Shown here: positions 25,767 through 64,000 of the stretch, in pieces | How positions within the stretch are numbered: the first letter of the stretch is position 1 | How the letters are laid out: every line of letters starts with the position of its first letter | Assembly: GCA_001780275.1 (NCBI GenBank) | Contig: MFGB01000007.1 | Coordinates: 2,280-66,279 of the forward strand | Source of the DNA: Candidatus Falkowbacteria bacterium RIFOXYA2_FULL_47_19 | Lineage (GTDB): Bacteria; Patescibacteriota; Patescibacteriia; Patescibacteriales; UBA12075 | Reading direction: 5' to 3' | Length of the DNA: 64,000 bases | Made by a program: the position numbers and the translations under genes | Notes under the pieces: generated by a model | Seen by the model: the letters and a program-made list of their open reading frames with translations, nothing else | What the model was told of the DNA's origin: nothing | Databases searched by the model: none

Positions 25767-26017
25767 AATGCCCCCCCCCTTCTTATACCGCAATCATGTT
25801 TTCAATGATCAGACAATCTTATTTTGATTGTTATAATTATTATTTTATTATAATTTAAAAAAAGCTTTATGTCAAGGAATTCCAACAAATTTTATAAAAA
25901 AAATAGCTAATATTAAATAAATATTTATATTAATAGCCTTAATATTCGCTAAATCTTAATTAGCATTTAACCACACTATAATAGTTATATTTTATCCTTT
26001 TAGTTAAGGAGGTAAGT

Positions 26018-53325: not shown

Positions 53326-54717
53326 CTACATGCTCAGCACCAATATATCCGACAAGCCGCCTTCCAATGCGTGGAACTTAAAATATATCAGGCTGGTAAC
53401 GAAAAGAATCACCAGAAAACTCTGCAATATCACGTGCTTGTGCTGAATCTCGTACCGGACTATGATGTTGACGATCAGGGCCATGATCAAAAGAGTAAGA
53501 ATGGCGATAAAGACGTAATTTACCGTTCTGGCTATGCCGGAGGCGCGCATGGTACTGGCGTCAGCTGTATTCTTGAATACGAGCGGTTCGCCCGGAATAT
53601 TCTTTTCCAGGGCGCTGTTAGGGCTTACTGGATCCGCCAGCGCTAATTTTGACCCGTCCGCGGCCGGAACGGTTTCCGGCAATACCGGCGGGATCGCCGG
53701 CAATATTTCCGGTTCGTTCATGATCTTCTCTTCAGCCGTTGGATTGGAGCTCACTTTATCTGCCGGTTTAGACTCAACGGTTTCCGTTTTCGGCGCCGGT
53801 TTTATGGCCGGTTTAACGACGGCGACTGCCGGAGAGGGCTTATCTTCCGTTTTCTTTTCTTCATCGGCCAATACGGCGACCGTTTCCGGAGCGGCCGGAA
53901 TTACCGACGGAGCCGGCATATCGCTTTTGGCTATTGTTGGCGCGGCCGGCCTGGTCGTGCCGAAAAGCTGGACCAAAACATTGGTTTGTTTGCCATTCAT
54001 GGTTCCGGTTACCATCGCCAGCCCGACATCGACGTAACGTTCGTTCAGTATGTTATGCTTGTGCGATGCCGAATTCATAAGAGCCCGGTGAGCTGAATCG
54101 GCTGAGGTGAAATTCATGGCCAGATTCTCGCCGACGAAAAGATATTTATATTGGCCGCGGTCGATCCAATCCCAGGGTTTTTTACCGTCCGGCGAGTGGT
54201 GGGCGAAATAACCCTTGGCGATCATGTCTTCGGCTTTCTCGTGCGCCGCGATATTGAGTACCAGGTTGGACTTAACGGTTCCCAGTCCCGCTTCGGATCT
54301 GGCGCCGTTTATGAGAGTCAATATTTCCTCGGTCATGTTTTCAGTCATGCGGCCTTCTTCCGGATAGACCAGGAATAAATATCCGACCAGGGATATTTTT
54401 ATGACGACCAGAAGCAATATGATAAGGGCGAGAGAATGAGCGCGGAGTATCTTCGGTTTATGGCCGTTTCCTTCATGAGGAATAAAATAATCGCAAAACA
54501 ACCGGCTCGAATCGGCGCAGTATTTCCTGAACGTTTCCCGGCCGGTCCTAAGTTCGTTTATCTCCTTTTCTTCGTTTCGAAAAAAGTCTTTCAGGTTTTG
54601 CTTAACATCCTGATATTTTTTCTTTCCATCTTGCCAAAAAAAGGCTATTAACTTATAGAGTAAATAAGCTAATATTAAATATAAAATTCCTCTTTTTTTA
54701 TCGTTTTTTTGCGTCAT
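53326..54717 (-). CDS. membrane-anchored CAP/SCP (YkwD-like) domain protein
   Basis: CAP core (LINGARSEAGL...YFAHHSPDGKKPWDWI...GENLA...MNSASHKHNIL), a Pro/Ala-rich linker, and C-terminal TM helices. Confidence 0.75.
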   Translation of the reverse strand: MTQKNDKKRGILYLILAYLLYKLIAFFWQDGKKKYQDVKQNLKDFFRNEEKEINELRTGRETFRKYCADSSRLFCDYFIPHEGNGHKPKILRAHSLALIILLLVVIKISLVGYLFLVYPEEGRMTENMTEEILTLINGARSEAGLGTVKSNLVLNIAAHEKAEDMIAKGYFAHHSPDGKKPWDWIDRGQYKYLFVGENLAMNFTSADSAHRALMNSASHKHNILNERYVDVGLAMVTGTMNGKQTNVLVQLFGTTRPAAPTIAKSDMPAPSVIPAAPETVAVLADEEKKTEDKPSPAVAVVKPAIKPAPKTETVESKPADKVSSNPTAEEKIMNEPEILPAIPPVLPETVPAADGSKLALADPVSPNSALEKNIPGEPLVFKNTADASTMRASGIARTVNYVFIAILTLLIMALIVNIIVRYEIQHKHVILQSFLVILFVTSLIYFKFHALEGGLSDILVLSM

Positions 54718-54870: not shown

Positions 54871-55263
54871 TTACTTTTCGATTGTGCGAACTTTATATAA
54901 TTCCAGTTTGACTGCATCCGAATCGACCGCAAGTATCCTGAAGTTATACTTATGCTTGCCTATCATTATTTCGAATTTTTTGCTGTCTTTCTTGCAAAGC
55001 GTCTGGAGGCGAAGCTGGGGACTGCTATAACCCTCAATATAAAATCCCTCTTTAAAAAAATCCTGCCCCAAATAAACAATCCAACTGTCCTGGTCGTTTT
55101 GATCTGCGTTTCCCTGATCAGTGGGATATATCTTGACCGGCACTCTGATTTCAAGTGTTATAACCTGACTATTTCGATTATTCCGCTCCATCTTATCGGT
55201 ACAAGCCAATATCGCCAAAAAAACAAATGCCAGAATGACGAAATACTCCAATTTCTTTTTCAT
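54871..55263 (-). CDS. hypothetical lipoprotein
   Basis: Lipobox AILAC after a hydrophobic signal. Confidence 0.45.
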   Translation of the reverse strand: MKKKLEYFVILAFVFLAILACTDKMERNNRNSQVITLEIRVPVKIYPTDQGNADQNDQDSWIVYLGQDFFKEGFYIEGYSSPQLRLQTLCKKDSKKFEIMIGKHKYNFRILAVDSDAVKLELYKVRTIEK

Positions 55264-55751: not shown

Positions 55752-56429
55752 TTAATTCTGTTTTTTGTCTTCTATAAGCTCCGCAATTACGACGAGTCTT
55801 TGCGCCGTCGAATAGATCGGCGTGCAGGTAAACATGGTCAGGGTCGGTTTTTCGGTCGGATTCATAATGGACAGGTCGGTCGGTTCAACTACCTTAATCT
55901 CCTTTATGCGATAAAAATAATCCTTTTCTTTATATATCACGGAAACGATATCCCCTATCACTAATTTATCAAACAGGAAGAAGGTCAGATTATTGGGCGG
56001 CAGGTATTTAAAACGGTGTCCGGTAATGACCGTATTCCCCCCCTTGTCCGGGGTCGAGCTTTCGGGTACGCGCCAGGAGCCGCGGGACAGACCGTACTCG
56101 GCCGTTTTCGCTTCCACGATCGGCGCGTTGACGCCGATCTTGGTGATTATTATCCGGTTGGGCGAAACTGCGTACTCGGCTTCGGGCAGCTTACTCACGA
56201 TCTTGGCTGTTTTCTCTTTGACGATAACCTCGTCCTGGTGTACGGCCGCCGCCTCCGTACTCGTGCCCATAGATCCGGCCAGTGACACCTCCTCTCTTTG
56301 CATTATCCTGTATTTGACGGAAGGGTAGATCGGCAGGGCGAATATATAAACGATCACGAGGATAGCCAAAAATTCCATTATTAAAACGGCCGCCTTAATG
56401 ACTTTTTCTTTTATCCCTTTTTCGCGCAT
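55752..56429 (-). CDS. sortase
   Basis: N-terminal TM, catalytic His (VITGHR), Cys (TMFTCTP, the TLxTC motif) and Arg (AQRLVV). Confidence 0.8.
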   Translation of the reverse strand: MREKGIKEKVIKAAVLIMEFLAILVIVYIFALPIYPSVKYRIMQREEVSLAGSMGTSTEAAAVHQDEVIVKEKTAKIVSKLPEAEYAVSPNRIIITKIGVNAPIVEAKTAEYGLSRGSWRVPESSTPDKGGNTVITGHRFKYLPPNNLTFFLFDKLVIGDIVSVIYKEKDYFYRIKEIKVVEPTDLSIMNPTEKPTLTMFTCTPIYSTAQRLVVIAELIEDKKQN

Positions 56430-56445
56430 TTATATATTTATATTA

Positions 56446-59400
56446 TTAATTTTTACCCGCAAAGCTCTTTCTTAACCGAAGTGGCCTGGTCTTTTTTAAG
56501 TTAACGACCTCGGGCATTTCTTCGTTATTGACCGAACGCTCCTTGATGGTCAGGATGATCGTTAAAATCACGAAAATCACGGAAAGCGCTATCAGGAGTT
56601 TCATGGCCAATCGGGCCGGAGCCAGATCGATCTTATTGCCGATACGCCCGGAGGTATCCAAAAAAGCGAAATCGTTTTCGCCGGGGTAAAAAGCCCGGTC
56701 TAATTCCGCGGCGGTCTCGTCCGCATATCCGGCGGCTAAAGCCTTTTCCGGCTGACCGACGATATCATCGAGGAAGCCGAGGCGGGAAATAGCCGGGCCG
56801 ACCGCGGCCGGTTCCGGAGCGTCAAGCTCCTCGCTCGCGCCCGCTACCGCTATGGTTCTGATCTCCAGGCTGGACCAATCTTTTGTCGATTCCTCATCGC
56901 CGGATACAACCTCTATGCCGATCAGATATAAACCTGATTCCACAGCCTCCGAAGCTTGCACGGAAAATGTAATGTTTTTAAATTCTCCCGGTTTTATATC
57001 TCCCAGATCCCAATGTTTGTTTATTATACCACTCTCATCAGAAAATGTCAATCCATCCGCCAGATTTCCGCTCAAAACGACGTTTTCGGCCATTTTACTG
57101 CCATTATTGGTAATAATAGCCTCATAACCGACCTTATCGCCGGGATTAGCCGATCCGGCACCGCCCTTAAGGCCGATTTCAAGTTGATACTGGTAACCGG
57201 ACCAATCCGGATTTTCCACCTTGATCTTAGCCGAACCGACCACGGCCACAAAATCATCCTTAGCCGCGTCGTACCCTTCAACGGTCACTTCGTTCACATA
57301 AACCCCGCTCCGGATATTAGACGTAATCTCGAGCGAATAGCCGATACTGACCTCTTCGCGGTCGAGAACCGCGCCCAGTTCCCAAAGTTCCCGGTTGACC
57401 TCAACCTTCCCCTCTTCACCCGATAGAATATCAAGAACCAGAACATCCTCCATGGGCGTACCGCCCGGATTCCTGATCGTAATCGTATAATTGACGACGT
57501 CGCCCGGACGGACAATATCGGCCGCGTCATTGGTTTTGACTACGATCAGGGCGGGAGATATATTACCGCTCCTGTTATCGGCATCGGTTTGAGATGATAA
57601 AGAATTACCCGCGCCGCCGACAGCGGCGGCATTCCCGCCATCCACGATAACGGTACCGCCCGCGGAATTATCGCCCGGATCGCGGTCGTTTTCGACGGAT
57701 GAAATCGCAACGGTATTATCCGCGTTATGATGCCCCGCCGAAATATCGTCCCTGACCCTGACGGCATAACTTAAGCTGCCCTGCGTATTGGGCGGGAGAT
57801 CTGAGAGCGGCCACGCGACATTACCGGCGCCCTCCTCGCTCCAGACGTAATTTTCGTCATAATCGTCGGATAGAGTCACTCCGGTCGCCAGGCCGTCGCC
57901 TTTGTTGCCGAACAGGAAGGTGTAATTTATATATTCCCCCCGCCTGACCGGTTCCGCCTTCTCTCCGGCTTCGGCGGACAAGCCTCCGTTTATGGATTCA
58001 GTGACCCAAAGGTCCGGCGCCCCGAACGCCAGGTTGCCCTGCCAGTCGCCGAAAACGTTGATCATGGAAAATTCCCAGTTATCGCCGGTAAAATTCGAAT
58101 TGATGAAATTGAACAGGCTGTTCTCTATGTTTATATCGCCGGTATCGATACTTCCGCCCTCCCCGTGAAGGATCGAATTGCCGCCGGTCGAGGCGTTGAT
58201 CTCTATATTGTTGGTAGTCGAGGCCTGGTTGGTATTACCGACGATCATCTGCGCGTAAGAGGCGTAAAATTCCGGATCAGAAAGGATATCGTTATAAATA
58301 GTGATGCCGTATTCGTCCTCTAGATACCCGTAACCCGGAGGAAGCCCCGTAACGAAGCCGTCCCAATTCCCGAAAATATTCACCCGGGCGAGCTTCCAGG
58401 CGTTGCCGCTCACGCTGTAGTTAATAAGATTGAATACGTGGGACTGAACCGTAGCGTCGCCGGTCGTTATATCGCCCCCTTCTTCGGCTAAATTGCTCCC
58501 AGTGTCCGCGTTCACGTCGATATCGTTTAAAAGCCCGGCCGTATCGGTGTTGGCGAGGATAATACTCGGGGAGTCGACGTCGGATTCAGTGATTCCGGCG
58601 ATTTCCTCGGTGGTCGTTCCCGCGGTTTCGTCCGTGCCGGTGGCTATTCCCGGGGCCGGCAATATAATATCGCCCTGAAGCTCGCCGAAAATATTTACTA
58701 CGGCGAAGAGCCAGTTATTCCCGGCCACGTTCAGGTTGGCGATATTCACGAGATCATTAACGATCTCAATATCGCCTGTTTCTATCAGCCCGAAACCGGT
58801 CGAGGTGGCGATTATATTGTCTCCGGTGTTGGCGTCGATAATGACGTTGTTGTCGATCGAGGCCTGATTGCCGTTATTTACGGTAAGATAGCAGCTGCCG
58901 GCTTCGCAAGCCGCCGGTTCTTCTCCCGCCGGCGTGGCGTCGTTAAAGCCGGACAGATCGATCGCGCCCATGACATGGTTGAAAATATTGATAAAATACT
59001 CCTTGCCGGGACCGAAGAAATTATTATTTATATAATTCAAAATAATATTGACAATGCCGACGTCACCAGTCGTGATCGAAGCGTCCCCGGATGACGACGC
59101 GATAGTATTTCCGCCGCTATCGCCGTTAAGGAGGACATCATTCGTGGTCGTAGCCGCGTTAATGTTGTCTATTGAAACGGTGCTCGTCGCCGCCTCCGGA
59201 CATTGTGCGCCGCAATCGGCTTCCAGGCTATTCGAATTAACGTTATTTTCGGTAATAGCCTCGATATTCGCGTCGCCCGTCATTATGGATGAGGTGGCGG
59301 TGTTATCAGCCGATCCGTTAATGTCTGGTAGGCCCGCGTCATTGCCTGTATCCGCCTCGTCAAGTTCGATGATTTGTGTATCGCCGCTTTCCTCTTCCGC

Positions 59401-59565
59401 TTCCGCCGCCGCGGCGGCGGTCTCGGCATTGTCCGCGACGAATTCATTCTCCTCGTCCGCCAAAACCAGTACGACATTATACGAATACAGCGCAACAAAT
59501 AGGATTGCCGCGAAAACAACGATCTTTTCTTTTATTTTTAAATTTTCATGATTATGTCTGGACAT
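56446..59565 (-). CDS. 1039-aa surface protein: five Asn/Gly-rich repeat modules, three DUF11/CARDB-like domains, C-terminal TM anchor
   Basis: N-terminal TM/signal. Repeats of N-x-[DS]-[ST]-G-x-N ... TGD ... N-x-x-N ... N[IV]FG-x-W-x-G. DUF11-like segments (GEYINYTFLFGNKGDG, GDVVNYTITIRNPGG, GDKVGYEAIITNNGS). C-terminal TM LLIALSVIFVILTIILTI plus a basic tail. Confidence 0.75.
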   Translation of the reverse strand: MSRHNHENLKIKEKIVVFAAILFVALYSYNVVLVLADEENEFVADNAETAAAAAEAEEESGDTQIIELDEADTGNDAGLPDINGSADNTATSSIMTGDANIEAITENNVNSNSLEADCGAQCPEAATSTVSIDNINAATTTNDVLLNGDSGGNTIASSSGDASITTGDVGIVNIILNYINNNFFGPGKEYFINIFNHVMGAIDLSGFNDATPAGEEPAACEAGSCYLTVNNGNQASIDNNVIIDANTGDNIIATSTGFGLIETGDIEIVNDLVNIANLNVAGNNWLFAVVNIFGELQGDIILPAPGIATGTDETAGTTTEEIAGITESDVDSPSIILANTDTAGLLNDIDVNADTGSNLAEEGGDITTGDATVQSHVFNLINYSVSGNAWKLARVNIFGNWDGFVTGLPPGYGYLEDEYGITIYNDILSDPEFYASYAQMIVGNTNQASTTNNIEINASTGGNSILHGEGGSIDTGDINIENSLFNFINSNFTGDNWEFSMINVFGDWQGNLAFGAPDLWVTESINGGLSAEAGEKAEPVRRGEYINYTFLFGNKGDGLATGVTLSDDYDENYVWSEEGAGNVAWPLSDLPPNTQGSLSYAVRVRDDISAGHHNADNTVAISSVENDRDPGDNSAGGTVIVDGGNAAAVGGAGNSLSSQTDADNRSGNISPALIVVKTNDAADIVRPGDVVNYTITIRNPGGTPMEDVLVLDILSGEEGKVEVNRELWELGAVLDREEVSIGYSLEITSNIRSGVYVNEVTVEGYDAAKDDFVAVVGSAKIKVENPDWSGYQYQLEIGLKGGAGSANPGDKVGYEAIITNNGSKMAENVVLSGNLADGLTFSDESGIINKHWDLGDIKPGEFKNITFSVQASEAVESGLYLIGIEVVSGDEESTKDWSSLEIRTIAVAGASEELDAPEPAAVGPAISRLGFLDDIVGQPEKALAAGYADETAAELDRAFYPGENDFAFLDTSGRIGNKIDLAPARLAMKLLIALSVIFVILTIILTIKERSVNNEEMPEVVNLKKTRPLRLRKSFAGKN

Positions 59566-59643
59566 ATTTTTATAACAATGATATTAAATGTTGGATATTA
59601 GATATTATGCTACAGTTTTAAATAACGATTTTTAGCCGAAATA

Positions 59644-59671
59644 ATATCCAATATCCGATATCCAATATCGG
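59644..59671. repeat. heptamer tract (ATATCCN x4), inverted relative to TTGGATAT at 59591-59606
   Basis: ATATCCA ATATCCG ATATCCA ATATCGG, in the region upstream of the 1039-aa gene. Confidence 0.9.
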
Positions 59672-59701
59672 ATTCTATCTCCCGATATTCGTCTATTGTG
59701 C

Positions 59702-59736
59702 AATCTTAATCGCCGATCGGAAATCGTCAATCACAC
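59702..59736. repeat. degenerate heptamer tract (AATCNNN x5) abutting the stop of 59736..60449
   Basis: AATCTTA ATCGCCG ATCGGAA ATCGTCA ATCACAC. The gene strand contains GATTGACGATTT, as in the mnmA tracts. Confidence 0.75.
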
Positions 59737-60449
59737 TATCCCCATAACCCCAGTATCTTTAAAATTCCGGCTTTGATCGCGCCGATGAAACCCGACCAGA
59801 CGGCCGCGATTCCCCCGTTATCATCCGGCCGATCATCTTCCGCGCCGCTGCCGGCGCCCTCCGCGCAATCGCTTTCTTCAAATGAACACAGTCCGCCCTC
59901 GGCGGATTCTTCCGATTCATCCCAAAGCACGTCCAAAGCCGCTTCAACCGGTTCATCTGTCGTTATTTCCACTTGCGGCGCGGCGATCTCCGTATCATCG
60001 GCTGGATTTTTCGGATTTAAATCAACCGTCCTGTTTTCTTTTTTTATTTCGCCGTTAATTTCGACTTCCGTTTCCGTTTCGGCTTTATCGCTATCAACAT
60101 TAACCTGGTTCTCTATTTTTAATAGAACGCCGTTTTCCGTTTCTTTCTCCGTCTTTATGTCCATTACCCTTGTTCCGTTTATCTCTGTCTCGATCTCAAT
60201 CTCAGAGCGCGTTTTCCCCTCTATAACGGCGCCGTTTTTCGCCGTATTACCGCCGCTTGAAGCTGAAGTTTTTATATCATTGGTGATTTCCACACTCCCG
60301 GAATCATCATAATAATAAACCTCGTCATATTCGGCCATCAAATCATCAAGGCTAAAAGCCCGCGTCCCGGCCGGCAGAAGCAACAACGATGCTATGATAA
60401 TATAATTGATTTTTTTAAAATATTTTATGAACATAAAGAAGGTTCGCAT
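59736..60449 (-). CDS. secreted acidic protein with one copy of the shared repeat module
   Basis: Signal peptide. SASSGGNTAKNGAVIEGKTRSEIEIETEIN resembles the module in the neighbouring proteins. Glu/Asp-rich. Confidence 0.5.
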   Translation of the reverse strand: MRTFFMFIKYFKKINYIIIASLLLLPAGTRAFSLDDLMAEYDEVYYYDDSGSVEITNDIKTSASSGGNTAKNGAVIEGKTRSEIEIETEINGTRVMDIKTEKETENGVLLKIENQVNVDSDKAETETEVEINGEIKKENRTVDLNPKNPADDTEIAAPQVEITTDEPVEAALDVLWDESEESAEGGLCSFEESDCAEGAGSGAEDDRPDDNGGIAAVWSGFIGAIKAGILKILGLWG

Positions 60450-60516
60450 GACATATCTATAATATTAAGTGAAGAGCATTGTGAATTATGCGATTAAACG
60501 GCGGGCTGGCCGGCGG

Positions 60517-60544
60517 GTAGAGACGAAGCATGCTTCGTCTCTAC
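60517..60544. repeat. family-A palindrome, copy 3
   Basis: GTAGAGACGAAGCATGCTTCGTCTCTAC is a perfect 28-nt palindrome, flanked by GGCGG and CGCC. Confidence 0.92.
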
Positions 60545-60581
60545 CGCCTGCCGCCCTTACTGTATCCTCGTCTATCAACCA

Positions 60582-61748
60582 TTAGAATCTGATCCTGTTT
60601 ATTATCCGGTTTACCGTATTAACAACGCGGGTTTCGCTTGAACTTGGTCCGGTAGTGATAGTACCGCCCCAGCCGGCATTTCCGCCTGCGCCGCCTGCGC
60701 CGCCGATATTATCGTCTTCCGAACCGGTGATCGTTCCGCCGTTTCCGGCCGCTGTGCCGTCTCCGCCATTAGCGGTATTATCGCCGGTTAAAGCATCGGC
60801 CTCGGCCGTATTGCTTATGGTAGCCCGATCCCGATTATTGATCACTATTCTTTCAGTGTTAGAAGCCAGTCCGTCATCGATATCGCAATCGCAGGGCGCG
60901 ATATTCGTCCGGTCGATATTAACCCTGTTCCTGACAGTCGCTACGGAAGTCGCTGCTCCGGTAATGATATTGCCGCCGTCGCCGCCGATACCGCCGGCAC
61001 CGCCGGCACCGCCCGTATTGGCGTCATCGGAATCGACTACGTTGCCTCCGTGTCCGGCCGCTCCGCCGGCACCGCCATTGGCCGTGTTATTGCCGGTAGA
61101 AGCGAGGGAATGGACAACGTTCGTGATTACCGCCTCCTTATCGTTCGTTACCTCGATCTGCAAATTCCTTTCTCCGTCTTCATCACAGTCTTCGTCGCAA
61201 TCTTCGTCGCAATCTTCGTCCGGGCAGACTTCATCGTACTCGATCGAAACCGCGTCAACATCAAAAGCATCCGCATCGTCATTATGTAAGTCCGGGTTGG
61301 TGGTATCGACCAATCTTACGTATTTAACGCATTGGTCGACTTCGAAGGTGGTCACGCTGTCGCCTATACCGTTATCGTTATTGGCCGAGCCGACGAAATT
61401 AAAATCTATCCCGTCATCACTAACATACACATCAGCGGTTTCCGCCGGGTAAGGTCCGCCGGTAGTCTCGTAAGTGGCCAGAGTAAGAACGCCGGACGCT
61501 TTGACCGGGAATTCAAGCGTCAACTCGCCGCCGAAACCCAAAGAAACGAAATCGCCGTCGTTCGGGCCCAGAGCGTCTGTCGGATCACTCCTTGACGCGC
61601 TGACCGGATCGCCGTCATTCTGATCCCCCTGATTGAATTCGTCGACGCTATCGGCAAAATCAAGAATGGCCGCATCCGCGTAGAACGAGGACATGAATGG
61701 TGATAGGGCCAGCATAAGCCCTAAAATAAAGATAAATGTTTTCTTCAT
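60582..61748 (-). CDS. secreted protein: beta-sandwich-like N-domain, (CDED)4 motif, two Gly-rich repeat modules
   Basis: Signal peptide. CPDEDCDEDCDEDCDED. Two roughly 65-aa repeats of TG[ND]NTANGG.G.AAG.GG...GGAGGAGG...TG....V.N.VN. Confidence 0.6.
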   Translation of the reverse strand: MKKTFIFILGLMLALSPFMSSFYADAAILDFADSVDEFNQGDQNDGDPVSASRSDPTDALGPNDGDFVSLGFGGELTLEFPVKASGVLTLATYETTGGPYPAETADVYVSDDGIDFNFVGSANNDNGIGDSVTTFEVDQCVKYVRLVDTTNPDLHNDDADAFDVDAVSIEYDEVCPDEDCDEDCDEDCDEDGERNLQIEVTNDKEAVITNVVHSLASTGNNTANGGAGGAAGHGGNVVDSDDANTGGAGGAGGIGGDGGNIITGAATSVATVRNRVNIDRTNIAPCDCDIDDGLASNTERIVINNRDRATISNTAEADALTGDNTANGGDGTAAGNGGTITGSEDDNIGGAGGAGGNAGWGGTITTGPSSSETRVVNTVNRIINRIRF

Positions 61749-61831
61749 AAGATTTTTCCGTTAAGTCTTAATGTACTTAAAAAGGATTCAAACAAAGAAC
61801 ATCGACCTTTTATTTATTTTTATTCTTTAAT

Positions 61832-61894
61832 CCTTTGGGTAAGATCGGCCCCGGCACCGATCCTGCCCAAAGGAAGGAAGTCCTTTCTTCCTTC
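61832..61894. other. two adjacent strong hairpins downstream of the LPXTG gene
   Basis: CCTTTGGG...CCCAAAGG encloses GATCGG...CCGATC. This is followed by GAAGGAAG-tccttt-CTTCCTTC. A T-run follows only on the plus strand. Confidence 0.4.
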
Positions 61895-61915
61895 TTCGGT
61901 TTTTTTATTTAAACG

Positions 61916-64000
61916 CTAAACAGCCTGTGTTTTTCGCCTTAAATATAAACCCGCGACGCCGAGCGACACCATGATCGCGGAGAGCGCGATTAACTCGTCA
62001 AAGCCGAATCCGGTTTCCGGTAATGTCGAACGCACCTCTAGATTAGCCGCGGCTCTTACGGGTTCGTGGTTATCCGCCCGCGCCTCCGCCCGATTGACGT
62101 ATACGCCCGCGGCCGCGTTTCGGTCAACGTTTGCCGAAATTATGATTTCCCGGCTCGCTCCGGAAGTTAGATCGCCGAGCATGAACGTTTTAGAGCTCGT
62201 GCCGTTATCGACGAAAGTGAGGCCGGACGGCAGGGTGTCGGTCATGACCGCGTTGAAAGCCGTTAAGTTGCCGGTATTCCTGACCGTAACCGTGAATTTT
62301 ATGTTGTCGCCGGGTCTGGCGAAAACGCGGTCGATCTTCTTGGTTATGGAAAGTACCGGTTCGCCCTCTTCTCCCCTGACGCAAACTTCATCCGATAAAG
62401 TATTTAAGGCGATTTCCGTCCCGAAAATTATATTCGAATTATTGACGGCTATCGGACGGACATAATAGGTTTTCCCGATATCCAGACCGATGATCGATTC
62501 CTCGTGGCCGGTAACTTCTTCGTTGTCTTCCACAGTCGAAAAAGCGTAACCGAAATTTGGAGCCGTGCTCGTGCCGATATCCGCGTGGGAAACGGTATCG
62601 TAAACAAGGCGTGAAGAGGCCGGTTTGGACGTTAACCAGGAAAATATCAGAAAATCGCAACCGGAATTTACATTCTGAAAATTCTTTATTTCGAATTGAG
62701 GTATGCTGCCGCCGCCTCCGCCGCCGCCGTTACTACCGCCTCCGCCGTTACTACCGCCGCCGCCGTTACTACCGCCGCCGCCATTGCCATTATCGGCGGG
62801 CTGTTTATAATTTACGAAATCAACGGTTTTGTCCTCGATTTTATGTTCTTCTTTGTCCGCTTGTAGGCTTACGGTCGCCATGCCGTTAGCAGGATCAACA
62901 TAGCTCCAGCCGGAAGGAAGGGTCTCGGTAATAGTGTAATCACCCTCCGGAAGTCCGCCGAAAACAGTACAGCCGTTTACCGTTCCCTGGGTGGTCGTGG
63001 CTACGTTACCGCCCGCCAACGTAAACTGCCAGACGGACGTGGTGGTAGCGCGATCGCCGGTCGTCGAAGCCGAGCCGTCCGCGTCTTCGTATTTGCATAC
63101 CTTGATCGACCCCTCCGGTTCCCGGAAGTTTACGAACTTTACGGTTTTATCCTCGCATTCTTCAAGGTTCACGGTGGTCGTGCCATCGGCCGGATCGACG
63201 AAACTCCAGCCGAAAAGAAGGGTTTCGGTAATTGTATAATCTCCGGCCGGAAGCTCATCGAAAACGGCGCAACCGTCCACGGTCGATCTTGCGGTCGTAG
63301 CCATGCCGTCATCGATAGTATATTGCCAGATACTGTCGGATAATATCCGGTCGTCAGTGGTCGAGGCCAGACCGTCTTTGTCTTCATATTTGCAGACTTT
63401 GATCGAGCCGGTGTTATCGCCTCCGCCTCCGCCGCCTCCGCCGCCTCCGCCATTACCCTCTTCTTTGAAATTTACGAAATTAACGGTTTTGTTTTCTCCT
63501 TTGGAGAGCTTCGCGGCCATGATTCCGCCAGCGGGATCGACGAAACTCCAGCCGGAAAGAAGGGTTTCGGTAATAGTATAATCCCCGGCCGGAAGCTCAT
63601 CGAAAACGGCGCAGCCGTCCACGGTCGATCTTACGGTCGTAGCCGTATCGCCGTTAAGGGTATATTCCCAGACGCTATCGGTTAGCGTCCGGTCGTCCGT
63701 AGTCGAAGCCGAGCCGTCCGCATCTTCGTATTTGCAGACTTTGATCGAACCTTTGAGTGCGGGAGGAACGGGTTCTTCCTTGTGATTTACGAAAGCGATG
63801 AACTTGTTTTCCGCGTTGCCGAGATTAGCTGTCAGTATGCCATTATCGGGAACCAGAAAAGACCACCCGGAGGGCAGGGTTTCCGTAACGGTATAACTAC
63901 CCGCTTCCAGACCGATAAAGGCGGTGCAGCCGTTTTCGGTCGTCTGTATTTTATCCGCGCCTCCGGAAAGGGTATATTCCCAGACCGTATCGGAAAGTAC
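61916..64000 (-). CDS. LPXTG-anchored surface protein with tandem Cna-B/SpaA-like domains (5' end beyond the window)
   Basis: C-terminal LPETG, hydrophobic helix and RRK tail. At least 5 repeats of GSIKVCKYED.DG...TVDGCAVFDELPAGDYTITETL..GWSFV. A DUF11-like domain. The track's M at 63622 is an in-frame GTG, and the frame stays open to position 64000. Confidence 0.85.
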   Translation of the reverse strand, partial: VLSDTVWEYTLSGGADKIQTTENGCTAFIGLEAGSYTVTETLPSGWSFLVPDNGILTANLGNAENKFIAFVNHKEEPVPPALKGSIKVCKYEDADGSASTTDDRTLTDSVWEYTLNGDTATTVRSTVDGCAVFDELPAGDYTITETLLSGWSFVDPAGGIMAAKLSKGENKTVNFVNFKEEGNGGGGGGGGGGGDNTGSIKVCKYEDKDGLASTTDDRILSDSIWQYTIDDGMATTARSTVDGCAVFDELPAGDYTITETLLFGWSFVDPADGTTTVNLEECEDKTVKFVNFREPEGSIKVCKYEDADGSASTTGDRATTTSVWQFTLAGGNVATTTQGTVNGCTVFGGLPEGDYTITETLPSGWSYVDPANGMATVSLQADKEEHKIEDKTVDFVNYKQPADNGNGGGGSNGGGGSNGGGGSNGGGGGGGSIPQFEIKNFQNVNSGCDFLIFSWLTSKPASSRLVYDTVSHADIGTSTAPNFGYAFSTVEDNEEVTGHEESIIGLDIGKTYYVRPIAVNNSNIIFGTEIALNTLSDEVCVRGEEGEPVLSITKKIDRVFARPGDNIKFTVTVRNTGNLTAFNAVMTDTLPSGLTFVDNGTSSKTFMLGDLTSGASREIIISANVDRNAAAGVYVNRAEARADNHEPVRAAANLEVRSTLPETGFGFDELIALSAIMVSLGVAGLYLRRKTQAV
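62711..62782. repeat. 18-nt tandem repeat encoding the (GGGGSN)n linker
   Basis: GTTACTACC recurs at 62729, 62747 and 62765. The protein reads GGGGSNGGGGSNGGGGSNGGGGGGGS. Confidence 0.9.

What the first reader, a model, noticed from the sequence alone, without database searches (positions are those of the whole stretch)
55752..64000. Sortase-linked run of four surface-protein genes: candidate attachment or fibre locus
Five consecutive minus-strand genes form one block.
- An LPETG-anchored protein with at least 5 Cna-B/SpaA-like domains (its 5' end lies outside the window).
- A 388-aa secreted Gly-rich protein.
- A 237-aa secreted acidic protein.
- A 1039-aa protein.
- A sortase starting 16 nt after the 1039-aa gene.

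Only one of the four cargo-like proteins has a canonical sorting signal. The other three are tied together by a shared repeat module. In a reduced, probably host-dependent bacterium, such a locus is the obvious candidate for a cell-cell attachment structure. I do not recognise the combination as a described pilus operon type.
Basis: partly seen in the sequence, partly recalled or inferred. Interest (0 to 1): 0.62.

Follow-up and report, generated by a model that had tools for sequence, protein, structure and literature searches.

The report
CPR surface-protein cassette beside a sortase
The five genes are real, but they are two units side by side: an ordinary sortase with its LPETG cargo, and a three-gene cell-surface cassette found widely in ultra-small (CPR) bacteria, built from a repeat that no database describes and whose job is unknown.

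Summary
All five minus-strand genes exist as described, including the 16-nt gap before the sortase and the shared repeat module (hhalign E 3e-8). The closest relative is a Candidatus Falkowbacteria genome.

The locus is composite.

Unit A is ordinary. It is an LPETG stalk protein, a sortase and a CAP-domain membrane protein. In 79 sortase-centred metagenome loci this unit recurs, and none of the 46 loci with usable flanks carries a module protein.

Unit B is the trio p388, p237 and p1039. It is a Patescibacteria-wide cassette.
- In 71 of 72 loci a small module protein sits directly upstream of the large one.
- The large protein has four modules in 70 of 82 cases.
- Only 6 of 48 loci have a sortase within the fetched flanks.

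The module has no Pfam, NCBIfam or PDB match. AlphaFold models it confidently as all-beta, with no Foldseek hit. p388 carries a CBM32-like lectin head. p1039 has a three-domain DUF11/CLIPPER stalk and a C-terminal membrane anchor.

In other lineages module proteins do carry LPXTG-like signals, so the sortase link is real but optional.

The locus lacks the hallmarks of a sortase-built pilus: no lid motif, no C-terminal anchor on the sortase, and no YPK-type pilin motif. Most likely it is a non-covalent adhesin complex, which is inferred, not shown.

The parts
61916..64000 (-). 3' part (694 codons) of an LPETG-anchored stalk protein. It has 4 SpaA/CnaB-type repeats (the first truncated by the window edge), an FN3-like domain, one DUF11/CLIPPER domain, and an LPETG + hydrophobic + RRKTQAV sorting signal. 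It is the substrate of unit A.
   Evidence: The full-length orthologue in L001 is 868 aa with a signal peptide.
60582..61748 (-). p388, 388 aa: a secreted small module protein (type 'S'). It has a signal peptide, a discoidin/CBM32-like beta-sandwich head (aa 28-175, nt 61224-61667) and two modules with Gly-rich inserts (aa 205-287 and 305-388).
   Evidence: The AF2 head has mostly high pLDDT (10-residue block means 68-94). Foldseek against PDB hits CBM32/discoidin domains at E 4e-5 to 1e-3, probability 1.0. Pfam F5_F8_type_C scores below its cut-off. The modules are supported. A homologous 'S' gene lies directly upstream of the large protein in 71 of 72 loci.
59736..60449 (-). p237, 237 aa: a secreted acidic protein (type 'H'). 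It has a signal peptide, one half-module (aa 52-75, nt 60225-60296), an acidic linker and a conserved amphipathic C-terminal helix (aa about 212-237, nt 59739-59816; family consensus FFxNIFSIF).
   Evidence: Relatives lie between S and the large gene in at least 19 of 61 loci, and often overlap the start of the large gene.
56446..59565 (-). p1039, 1039 aa: the large anchored module protein. It has a signal peptide, an acidic disordered region, four full modules (aa 132-513, nt 58027-59172), three DUF11/CLIPPER Ig-like stalk domains (aa about 539-890, nt 56896-57951), a linker, a C-terminal TM helix (aa about 976-1003, nt 56557-56640) and a basic tail. It has no canonical sorting signal.
   Evidence: The AF2 model of aa 1-530 has pLDDT 80 and pTM 0.75, with 10-residue block means in the module cores mostly above 90. 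Four modules are found in 70 of 82 relatives.
55752..56429 (-). Sortase, 225 aa, with an N-terminal TM anchor and His138/Cys202/Arg211. It cannot be assigned to a class. It belongs to unit A.
57023..57051 (-). A perfect sigma-70 consensus (TTGACA, 17 nt, extended TG, TATAAT) inside the p1039 coding region, 594 nt upstream of the sortase start codon. It is a candidate internal promoter that would let the sortase be transcribed independently.
   Evidence: 2 perfect matches in 64 kb against 0.04 expected. Both hexamers are kept in L001 although the spacer diverged, and 11 of 12 positions are kept in L014. This is a consensus match only; it has not been tested.
53326..54717 (-). A CAP/SCP-domain membrane protein, 463 aa. 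It is the conserved downstream neighbour of CPR sortases and the third member of unit A. In this window a NUDIX gene and a 130-aa ORF separate it from the sortase.
   Evidence: In L001 the orthologue carries PF00188. A CAP protein lies within 1.8 kb downstream of the sortase in 30 of 49 sortase-centred loci.

Best explanation
The block is two conserved units nested in one another.

Unit A is an ordinary CPR cell-wall sorting unit. The sortase cleaves the LPETG signal of the upstream isopeptide-domain stalk protein and links it to the cell wall. A CAP-domain membrane protein is its usual downstream neighbour.

Unit B is a Patescibacteria-wide three-gene cassette.
- p1039 is built like a fibrillar adhesin. 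It is held in the membrane by a C-terminal TM helix. It is raised through the wall on three DUF11/CLIPPER domains, a family with isopeptide-bonded members. It displays a rigid, very acidic head made of four copies of an undescribed all-beta module.
- p388 is secreted. It has a CBM32-like lectin head plus two modules.
- p237 is secreted. It has a half-module plus an amphipathic C-terminal helix.

I infer that p388 and p237 dock non-covalently onto the p1039 head through the shared module. This would give a membrane-anchored adhesin complex of fixed composition. Its glycan-binding tip would contact a host cell or substrate.

What is shown: gene content, domains, synteny statistics, the module homology and the confidently predicted fold. 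What is inferred: the physical assembly, the binding function, and that the sortase does not act on these three proteins in this genome.
For: Cassette conservation:
- 71 of 72 large module proteins with at least 1.5 kb upstream have a small module protein directly upstream on the same strand.
- The order S-(H)-Large recurs.
- Module number is fixed at four per large protein in 70 of 82 cases.
- The small proteins mostly show two Gly-insert-module (GM) hits. This argues for a defined complex rather than an open-ended repeat protein.
- H genes often overlap the start of the large gene.

Independence from the sortase:
- A sortase is present in only 6 of 48 cassette loci.
- None of 46 sortase-centred loci carries a module protein, while a sorting-signal protein lies upstream in 28 of 54 and a CAP protein downstream in 30 of 49.
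- p1039, p388 and p237 lack L-x-x-T-G sorting signals.
- A conserved perfect promoter consensus lies ahead of the sortase, inside p1039.

Architecture:
- DUF11/CLIPPER domains routinely form the stalk of fibrillar adhesins (PMC12617251).
- Relatives of p1039 use interchangeable anchors: a TM helix, LASTG or LSPTG, or a PG_binding_1 domain. The C-terminus is therefore the base and the module array is the distal end.
- The p388 head matches CBM32/discoidin folds.
- The module is shared between the anchored and the secreted proteins.
Against: - No direct evidence of protein-protein contact. No complex prediction could be run, and the AF2 model of the p388 module part is unreliable (pLDDT below 50).
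- The lectin head is found in only a minority of S proteins: 9 ORFs hit the N-domain HMM (7 after excluding one duplicate locus and the 1405-aa L039 ORF), and only some of these are S proteins directly upstream of a large module gene. Glycan binding therefore cannot be the general function.
- The 16-nt gap and the absence of predicted terminators between the genes are compatible with co-transcription with the sortase.
- Window, L001 and L014 keep the nested order, so selection for co-expression is possible.
- In other lineages module proteins are clear sortase substrates.
- Synteny counts rest on HMMs built here and on simple ORF calling.
Confidence: 0.5

Rival explanations
1. It is one sortase-dependent attachment or fibre locus, in which the sortase anchors or polymerises the LPETG protein together with the module proteins into a single surface fibre.
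For: - All five genes are on one strand, with a 16-nt gap before the sortase.
- The same nested order occurs in L001 and L014.
- A sortase is adjacent to module clusters in several CPR classes: L005, L010, L013, L029, L093, L095.
- Module proteins carry LASTG, LSPTG, LPVTG, LPITG or LGATG signals in relatives.
Against: - In this window none of the three module proteins has a sorting signal.
- There is no class C lid, no C-terminal anchor on the sortase and no pilin motif.
- The sortase scores far below every class-specific NCBIfam cut-off.
- 42 of 48 cassette loci have no sortase within the fetched flanks, and none of 46 sortase loci has a module protein.
Confidence: 0.15
2. The cassette builds an extended surface polymer. 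This could be a 2-D lattice (S-layer-like) or a fibre, in which anchored p1039 nucleates the stacking of secreted S and H subunits through edge-to-edge beta interactions. It would work like curli CsgB/CsgA or the long and short chaplins.
For: - The same module occurs in one anchored and two secreted proteins.
- The module is Asn/Thr/Gly-rich with alternating polar and apolar strands, and the model is all-beta and rigid.
- The weak, non-significant Foldseek neighbours are beta-solenoids, including a curli CsgA.
- The family is very widespread in CPR.
- The CPR envelope and its surface layer remain molecularly undefined (PMC5220378).
Against: - The fixed 4 / 2 / one-half module counts suggest defined stoichiometry.
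- There is no sequence relation to CsgA (hhalign probability 0.1%).
- Strands in the model are long (about 16-22 residues), unlike solenoid rungs.
- No abundance or imaging data exist.
Confidence: 0.2
3. The three module proteins do not form a common structure. They are paralogous, independently acting secreted or surface proteins, such as cation- or mineral-binding proteins or variable adhesins, kept together only by tandem duplication.
For: - All are strongly acidic, with pI 4.05-4.15. The module array has 51 Asp/Glu against 3 Lys/Arg.
- The Gly-rich inserts are GGxGxD-like.
- Tandem paralogues are common in surface-protein islands.
Against: The order and type of the three genes (S, H, Large) is conserved over deep divergence, with distinct, non-interchangeable architectures and frequent start/stop overlap. 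That is atypical of a mere paralogue array. No Pfam calcium-binding repeat was detected.
Confidence: 0.15

Closest known systems
Sortase-anchored LPXTG stalk adhesins with CnaB/SpaA and CnaA-like (DUF11/CLIPPER) isopeptide domains, i.e. fibrillar adhesins as surveyed in PMC12617251
   Same: - The LPETG protein has SpaA/SdrD_B-type repeats, a CLIPPER domain and an LPETG signal next to a sortase.
- p1039 has the fibrillar-adhesin layout of signal peptide, distal head, CLIPPER stalk and anchor.
   Different: - The p1039 head is an undescribed four-module array, and its anchor here is a TM helix rather than a sorting signal.
- It is always accompanied by secreted proteins that carry the same module.
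Sortase-assembled Gram-positive pili (SpaA-type; class C sortase plus pilins)
   Same: A sortase gene is clustered with surface-protein genes, and the cargo contains isopeptide-type domains.
   Different: - There is no class C lid or C-terminal anchor and no pilin-motif lysine.
- There is a single sortase, and only one sorting-signal protein in the window.
- The module proteins lack sorting signals.
Streptomyces chaplins (long sortase-anchored and short secreted forms sharing one domain) and curli CsgB/CsgA. These are analogies from general knowledge.
   Same: The logic is the same: one envelope-anchored protein and small secreted proteins share a repeat that could mediate co-assembly. In some lineages the anchored member uses an LAxTG-type signal (L003 has LASTG).
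   Different: - There is no sequence similarity (CsgA tested, hhalign probability 0.1%; chaplins not tested).
- The modules are about 75 aa with long strands.
- Copy numbers are fixed.
- The organisms are CPR, not Actinobacteria or Proteobacteria.
Pam pili of CPR bacteria (bioRxiv 10.64898/2026.03.03.709456)
   Same: It is a CPR-restricted surface appendage system encoded by previously unannotated genes.
   Different: Pam pilins have Ig-like folds assembled by donor-strand exchange with membrane-anchored chaperones. The paper mentions sortases only in its introduction and assigns none to the pam operon. Nothing in the present cassette resembles that description.
CBM32 / discoidin (F5/8 type C) carbohydrate-binding modules
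   Same: The N-terminal domain of p388 has this fold: Foldseek E 4e-5 to 1e-3, probability 1.0, TM-score relative to the target up to 0.67.
   Different: - The Pfam score (16.7 bits) is below the cut-off of 28.2.
- No ligand-site analysis was done.
- The domain is fused to module repeats, not to a glycoside hydrolase.

Membership tests
Sortase (PF04203 / MEROPS C60) | The sortase domain with the catalytic His, the Cys of the TLxTC motif, and Arg. | tested here: met
   PF04203 scores 84.5 bits against a cut-off of 26.6. TIGR01076 scores 65 against 39.35. TGHR (His138), FTCT (Cys202) and QRLVV (Arg211) are present.
Class C (pilus-polymerising) sortase | A lid with a DP[WFY] motif over the active site, a C-terminal membrane anchor, and a score above the family HMM cut-off. 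| tested here: not met
   There is no DP[WFY] motif. The protein ends shortly after the catalytic Arg (Arg211 of 225 residues). NF033745 scores 64.8 bits against a cut-off of 160. Classes D, E and F also score far below their cut-offs.
LPXTG cell-wall sorting signal proteins | A C-terminal LPXTG-type motif, then a hydrophobic segment, then a basic tail. | tested here: met
   This is met for the gene at 61916-64000 (LPETG...RRKTQAV; TIGR01167 scores 15.9, exactly at the cut-off). It is not met for p1039, p388 or p237 (regex scan). The p1039 tail reads FLDTSG, then 17 aa, then a TM helix, which is unlike the L-x-x-T-G-[FW]-x-x-x-E pattern of neighbouring CPR substrates.
Sortase-dependent pilus operon | A shaft pilin with a pilin-motif lysine (YPKN-like), at least two LPXTG pilins, and a dedicated class C sortase. 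| tested here: not met
   No [YFW]PK motif is found in the LPETG protein or its full-length orthologue. There is one sorting-signal gene in the window. The sortase is not class C.
DUF11 / CLIPPER (PF01345) isopeptide stalk domains | A match to the domain HMM and the Lys-Asp-Asn triad positions. | tested here: met
   p1039 scores 84.2 bits over three stretches. The LPETG protein scores 62.2 bits. Candidate K...D...N residues are visible in the sequences (for example VVK...VLD...YVNE). The bond itself cannot be tested here.
CBM32 / F5_F8_type_C | The family HMM above its cut-off, the beta-sandwich jelly-roll fold, and sugar- or Ca-binding loop residues. | tested here: inconclusive
   The HMM scores below its cut-off (16.7 against 28.2). 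The fold matches. Binding-site residues were not examined.
Curli (CsgA/CsgB) repeats | The Sx5QxGxGNxAx3Q repeat and the Curlin_rpt HMM. | tested here: not met
   There is no Pfam hit. hhalign of the module against E. coli CsgA gives probability 0.1%.
CPR module cassette (defined here; not a named family) | S (two Gly-insert modules), then H (optional: half-module plus FFxNIFSIF C-terminal end), then Large (four modules plus stalk and anchor), all on the same strand and adjacent. | tested here: met
   Window genes p388, p237 and p1039 fit this pattern. The pattern is seen in 71 of 72 evaluable loci.

The most novel reading that the evidence does not exclude
The S-H-Large cassette encodes a previously unrecognised, CPR-specific extracellular structure. 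It would be built from a new beta-module fold: an anchored four-module nucleator onto which the secreted two-module and half-module proteins assemble. The result could be the long-observed but molecularly undefined surface layer of CPR cells, or an adhesive fibre. It would be attached to the envelope by whichever anchor a lineage uses (TM helix, sortase signal or peptidoglycan-binding domain).
Probability: 0.2. Interest if true: 0.85.

Novelty: new variant of a known kind. Interest (0 to 1): 0.6.

Why it matters
How CPR/Patescibacteria build their envelope and hold on to host cells is largely unknown. Only type IV pili and, very recently, Pam pili have molecular identities.

This locus points to a three-gene cassette that recurs in the fetched loci from Paceibacteria-type and Microgenomatia-type genomes.
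- It has at least 317 homologue clusters in a word-limited search.
- Of 187 pattern-matched stretches in the scan of one genome per GTDB species, 124 were confirmed as relatives.
- It has no Pfam, NCBIfam or PDB counterpart.
- Its fold is confidently predicted and matches nothing solved.

Separating the cassette from the neighbouring sortase unit turns a vague 'surface island' into two testable objects:
1. A conserved unit of substrate, sortase and CAP-domain protein.
2. A module cassette with fixed 2 / one-half / 4 stoichiometry and swappable anchors.

If the cassette proves to be an adhesin complex or surface lattice, it would be a handle for studying host recognition in uncultivated CPR lineages.

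Tried and rejected
- Curli homology was rejected (hhalign probability 0.1%).
- Identity with the Pam pilus was rejected. That system uses Ig-like donor-strand-exchange pilins, and the paper assigns no sortase to the pam operon.
- A phage tail-fibre-like fold is not supported. BFVD Foldseek gave no hit with E <= 0.001 (best E 0.03, probability 0.01).
- PDB searches of the module array found nothing, either by fold (best E 1.6) or by sequence profile.
- The exhaustive profile search gave 17,783 hits. The count is inflated by DUF11 columns, since giant DUF11-repeat proteins match only profile positions 577-740. I do not use it as a family size.
- The search for related loci with the broad alignments failed for lack of conserved stretches. 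A narrower alignment of the fourth module and its junction worked, but it biases the 80 loci towards the DUF11-bearing Paceibacteria-type subfamily.
- The AF2 model of the p388 module region is unreliable with only 10 sequences.
- Reading p1039's 'FLDTSG' or 'KIDLAP' as a degenerate sorting signal was considered and not adopted. The spacing and flanking residues differ from the true signals in relatives.
- The terminator scan gave nothing above background.
Full report
**Observation**

ORF listing and translation confirm five consecutive minus-strand genes.
- A sortase at 55752-56429.
- A 1039-aa protein (p1039) at 56446-59565.
- A 237-aa protein (p237) at 59736-60449.
- A 388-aa protein (p388) at 60582-61748.
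- An LPETG protein that starts beyond the window edge and ends at 61916.

The intergenic gaps are 167, 132, 170 and 16 nt.

Pfam and NCBIfam give these results.
- The sortase matches PF04203 (E 6.6e-24).
- p1039 has three DUF11/CLIPPER stretches.
- The LPETG protein has four SpaA-type stretches, one DUF11 domain and an LPXTG anchor at its cut-off.
- p237 has no match.
- p388 has only a sub-threshold F5/8 type C match.

The sortase has the His, Cys and Arg motifs. It scores about 60-65 bits against every class model, where cut-offs are 140-166, so it cannot be assigned to a class.

Four are visible, one of them cut by the edge. The full-length orthologue has five.

**The shared module**

A 78-position HMM was built from 397 module copies of p1039 homologues.
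- It finds four full copies in p1039 (aa 132-204, 228-302, 338-408, 442-513; i-E 1e-17 to 1e-25) and a partial copy at aa 83-114.
- It finds a half-module in p237 (aa 52-75).
- It finds weak split hits in p388.

Profile-profile comparison of the p388 family with the fourth p1039 module gives probability 95% and E 3e-8, with a Gly-rich insert of about 30 residues looped out. The LPETG protein has no module.

The consensus is roughly NxNxAxVxNxVxxxAxTGxNxA ... IxTGDAxxxxxVxNxxNTN. In the large protein only, it continues as WxxxxVNIFGxWxG.

**Origin and spread**

The best homologue of p388 is 80% identical and comes from a Candidatus Falkowbacteria MAG. The locus there (L001) is fully syntenic, including the sortase, a NUDIX gene, a CAP-domain protein and MnmA. 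It also has two further LAETG proteins upstream.

The module half of p1039 has at least 317 homologue clusters. All named ones are Patescibacteria, and none has a Pfam domain on the module part. In the scan of one genome per GTDB species, 124 of 187 pattern-matched stretches were confirmed as relatives, and the 80 best loci were fetched.

The exhaustive profile search returned thousands of hits. The total is inflated by DUF11 columns, so I do not use it as a family size.

**Synteny from the cassette side**

I called ORFs in all fetched loci and scanned them with HMMs built here.
- 71 of 72 large module proteins with at least 1.5 kb upstream have a small module protein directly upstream on the same strand. 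The single exception has an overlapping one.
- The large protein has four full modules in 70 of 82 cases.
- The small 'S' protein mostly shows two Gly-insert-module (GM) hits.
- A p237-like 'H' protein lies between them in at least 19 of 61 loci and often overlaps the start of the large gene. It has a half-module, an acidic linker and a conserved FFxNIFSIF amphipathic C-terminus.
- A sortase lies within the fetched flanks (up to 10 kb) in only 6 of 48 loci with at least 3 kb on both sides.

**Synteny from the sortase side**

A metagenome scan with window-type sortases gave 79 loci.
- None of the 46 with at least 4 kb of flank has any module protein.
- 28 of 54 have a protein with an L(P/A)xTG sorting signal ending within 400 nt upstream.
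- 30 of 49 have a CAP-domain membrane protein within 1.8 kb downstream.

The conserved sortase unit is therefore substrate, sortase and CAP-domain protein. In the window, L001 and L014, the module cassette sits between the substrate gene(s) and the sortase.

A perfect extended sigma-70 consensus lies inside p1039, 594 nt before the sortase start. There are only two perfect matches in 64 kb, against 0.04 expected, and the other one sits just upstream of a gene. Its hexamers are conserved in L001 and nearly conserved in L014. This hints that the sortase can be expressed on its own. The region also encodes a conserved GLTF motif, so the evidence is weak.

**The sortase link is optional, not absent**
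- Close relatives of p1039 end in LASTG (L003) or LSPTG (L016), each followed by a hydrophobic segment and a basic tail.
- Other relatives end in a TM helix or a PG_binding_1 domain.
- In the shorter (about 700-780 aa) subfamily, named sources are Gottesmanbacteria and Woesebacteria. A sortase is adjacent in 4 of 7 independent loci.
- In that subfamily the gene after the large protein is a third module protein ending in LPVTG, LPITG, LGATG or a similar signal.

Module proteins therefore are sortase substrates in some lineages. In this window none of the three is.

**Structure**

The AF2 model of p1039 aa 1-530, built from 100 sequences, is confident. It has pLDDT 80 and pTM 0.75, with 10-residue block means in the module cores mostly above 90. 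It is all-beta with long strands of about 16-22 residues per module.

The p388 model is reliable only for aa 28-175. That region is a beta-sandwich matching discoidin/CBM32 carbohydrate-binding modules (E 4e-5 to 1e-3, probability 1.0). The N-domain HMM hits only 9 ORFs, so this head is limited to a minority of S proteins.

The module array is extremely acidic, with 51 Asp/Glu against 3 Lys/Arg.

**Interpretation**

p1039 has the layout that the CLIPPER survey describes for fibrillar adhesins: signal peptide, distal functional region, isopeptide-domain stalk and anchor (PMC12617251). Three observations point to a defined non-covalent surface complex anchored by p1039, tipped in this lineage by a lectin-like domain.
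- The cassette order is constant.
- The module counts are fixed.
- The same module occurs in one anchored and two secreted proteins.

The sortase most likely serves the neighbouring LPETG stalk protein.

A sortase-polymerised pilus is unlikely. There is no lid, no C-terminal anchor, no pilin motif and only one sorting-signal gene. A polymeric lattice or fibre, analogous to chaplins or curli but not homologous, remains possible. It is the most novel reading.

**Literature**

Searches found no description of this module or cassette. CPR sortases are noted only as present, in more than half of CPR and nearly all Microgenomates (PMC6744442). The CPR envelope is described as unresolved (PMC5220378). 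The recently described Pam pili are a different system.

**Limits**
- The HMMs and ORF calls are my own.
- The 80 genome loci are biased towards the DUF11-bearing subfamily.
- The seven Microgenomatia-type loci were chosen for long contigs.
- No interaction, expression or localisation data exist.

Noticed in passing
window 53326-54717 (-); L096-L174: A CAP/SCP-domain protein with C-terminal membrane segments is the usual downstream neighbour of window-type CPR sortases. It lies within 1.8 kb in 30 of 49 loci, and is also seen in L001, L005, L010 and L014. This pairing suggests an unstudied partner of the sortase.
   Followed up: partly
window 57023-57051 (-): A perfect TTGACA-17-(TG)TATAAT consensus lies inside the p1039 coding region, 594 nt upstream of the sortase ATG. 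It is one of only two perfect matches in the 64-kb window (0.04 expected). The hexamers are conserved in L001 and nearly conserved in L014. The other match, at 25847-25875 (-), lies 54 nt upstream of a gene start.
   Followed up: partly
P0058, P0070, P0072, P0076, P0111 and others; L010 3512-5620; L008 8001-10319: Many proteins of the ~700-780-aa subfamily end in a conserved (K/R)(I/V)NLAW motif, then a hydrophobic helix, then a basic tail. This is a tripartite layout like a sorting signal. A second group ends in ADPGLFDGFKLxYL plus a TM helix and RR. Whether either is processed is unknown.
   Followed up: no
window 59739-59816 (-); L013, L014, L019, L021, L023, L024, L029, L039 and others; L006 445-1884 and 2030-4393: The p237 family shares a C-terminal amphipathic motif, roughly W..F...LKxFFxNIFSIF. 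Similar ends (FFKNLFGRH, FFKHLFGH) occur on unrelated DUF11 proteins in L006. This may be a general CPR envelope-association tag.
   Followed up: no
L005 5628-6242; L010 1384-1938; L008 4988-5830; L092 4458-5018: A small membrane-anchored protein resembling DUF4352 (only the L092 copy has a weak precomputed PF11611 hit; the others are judged similar by eye) recurs two genes upstream of the large module protein in the Microgenomatia-type clusters. It is absent from the window.
   Followed up: no
window 54871-55263 (-): A 130-aa ORF lies between the NUDIX gene and the CAP-domain gene. It has a lipoprotein-like N-terminus (FLAILAC). The best-scoring minus-strand terminator-like hairpin of the region (54862-54843) starts 9 nt downstream of it.
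   Followed up: no
L001 1-6243: In the Falkowbacteria relative, two further large proteins with LAETG sorting signals lie upstream of the LPETG gene. One has Cys-rich DUF4215-like repeats. The window probably continues the same way beyond position 64000.
   Followed up: partly
L093 15293-16211: A CBASS-like pair (CD-NTase C-terminal domain and Cap15-like) lies a few kb from the module cluster in one Microgenomatia-type contig. It is unrelated to the finding.
   Followed up: no
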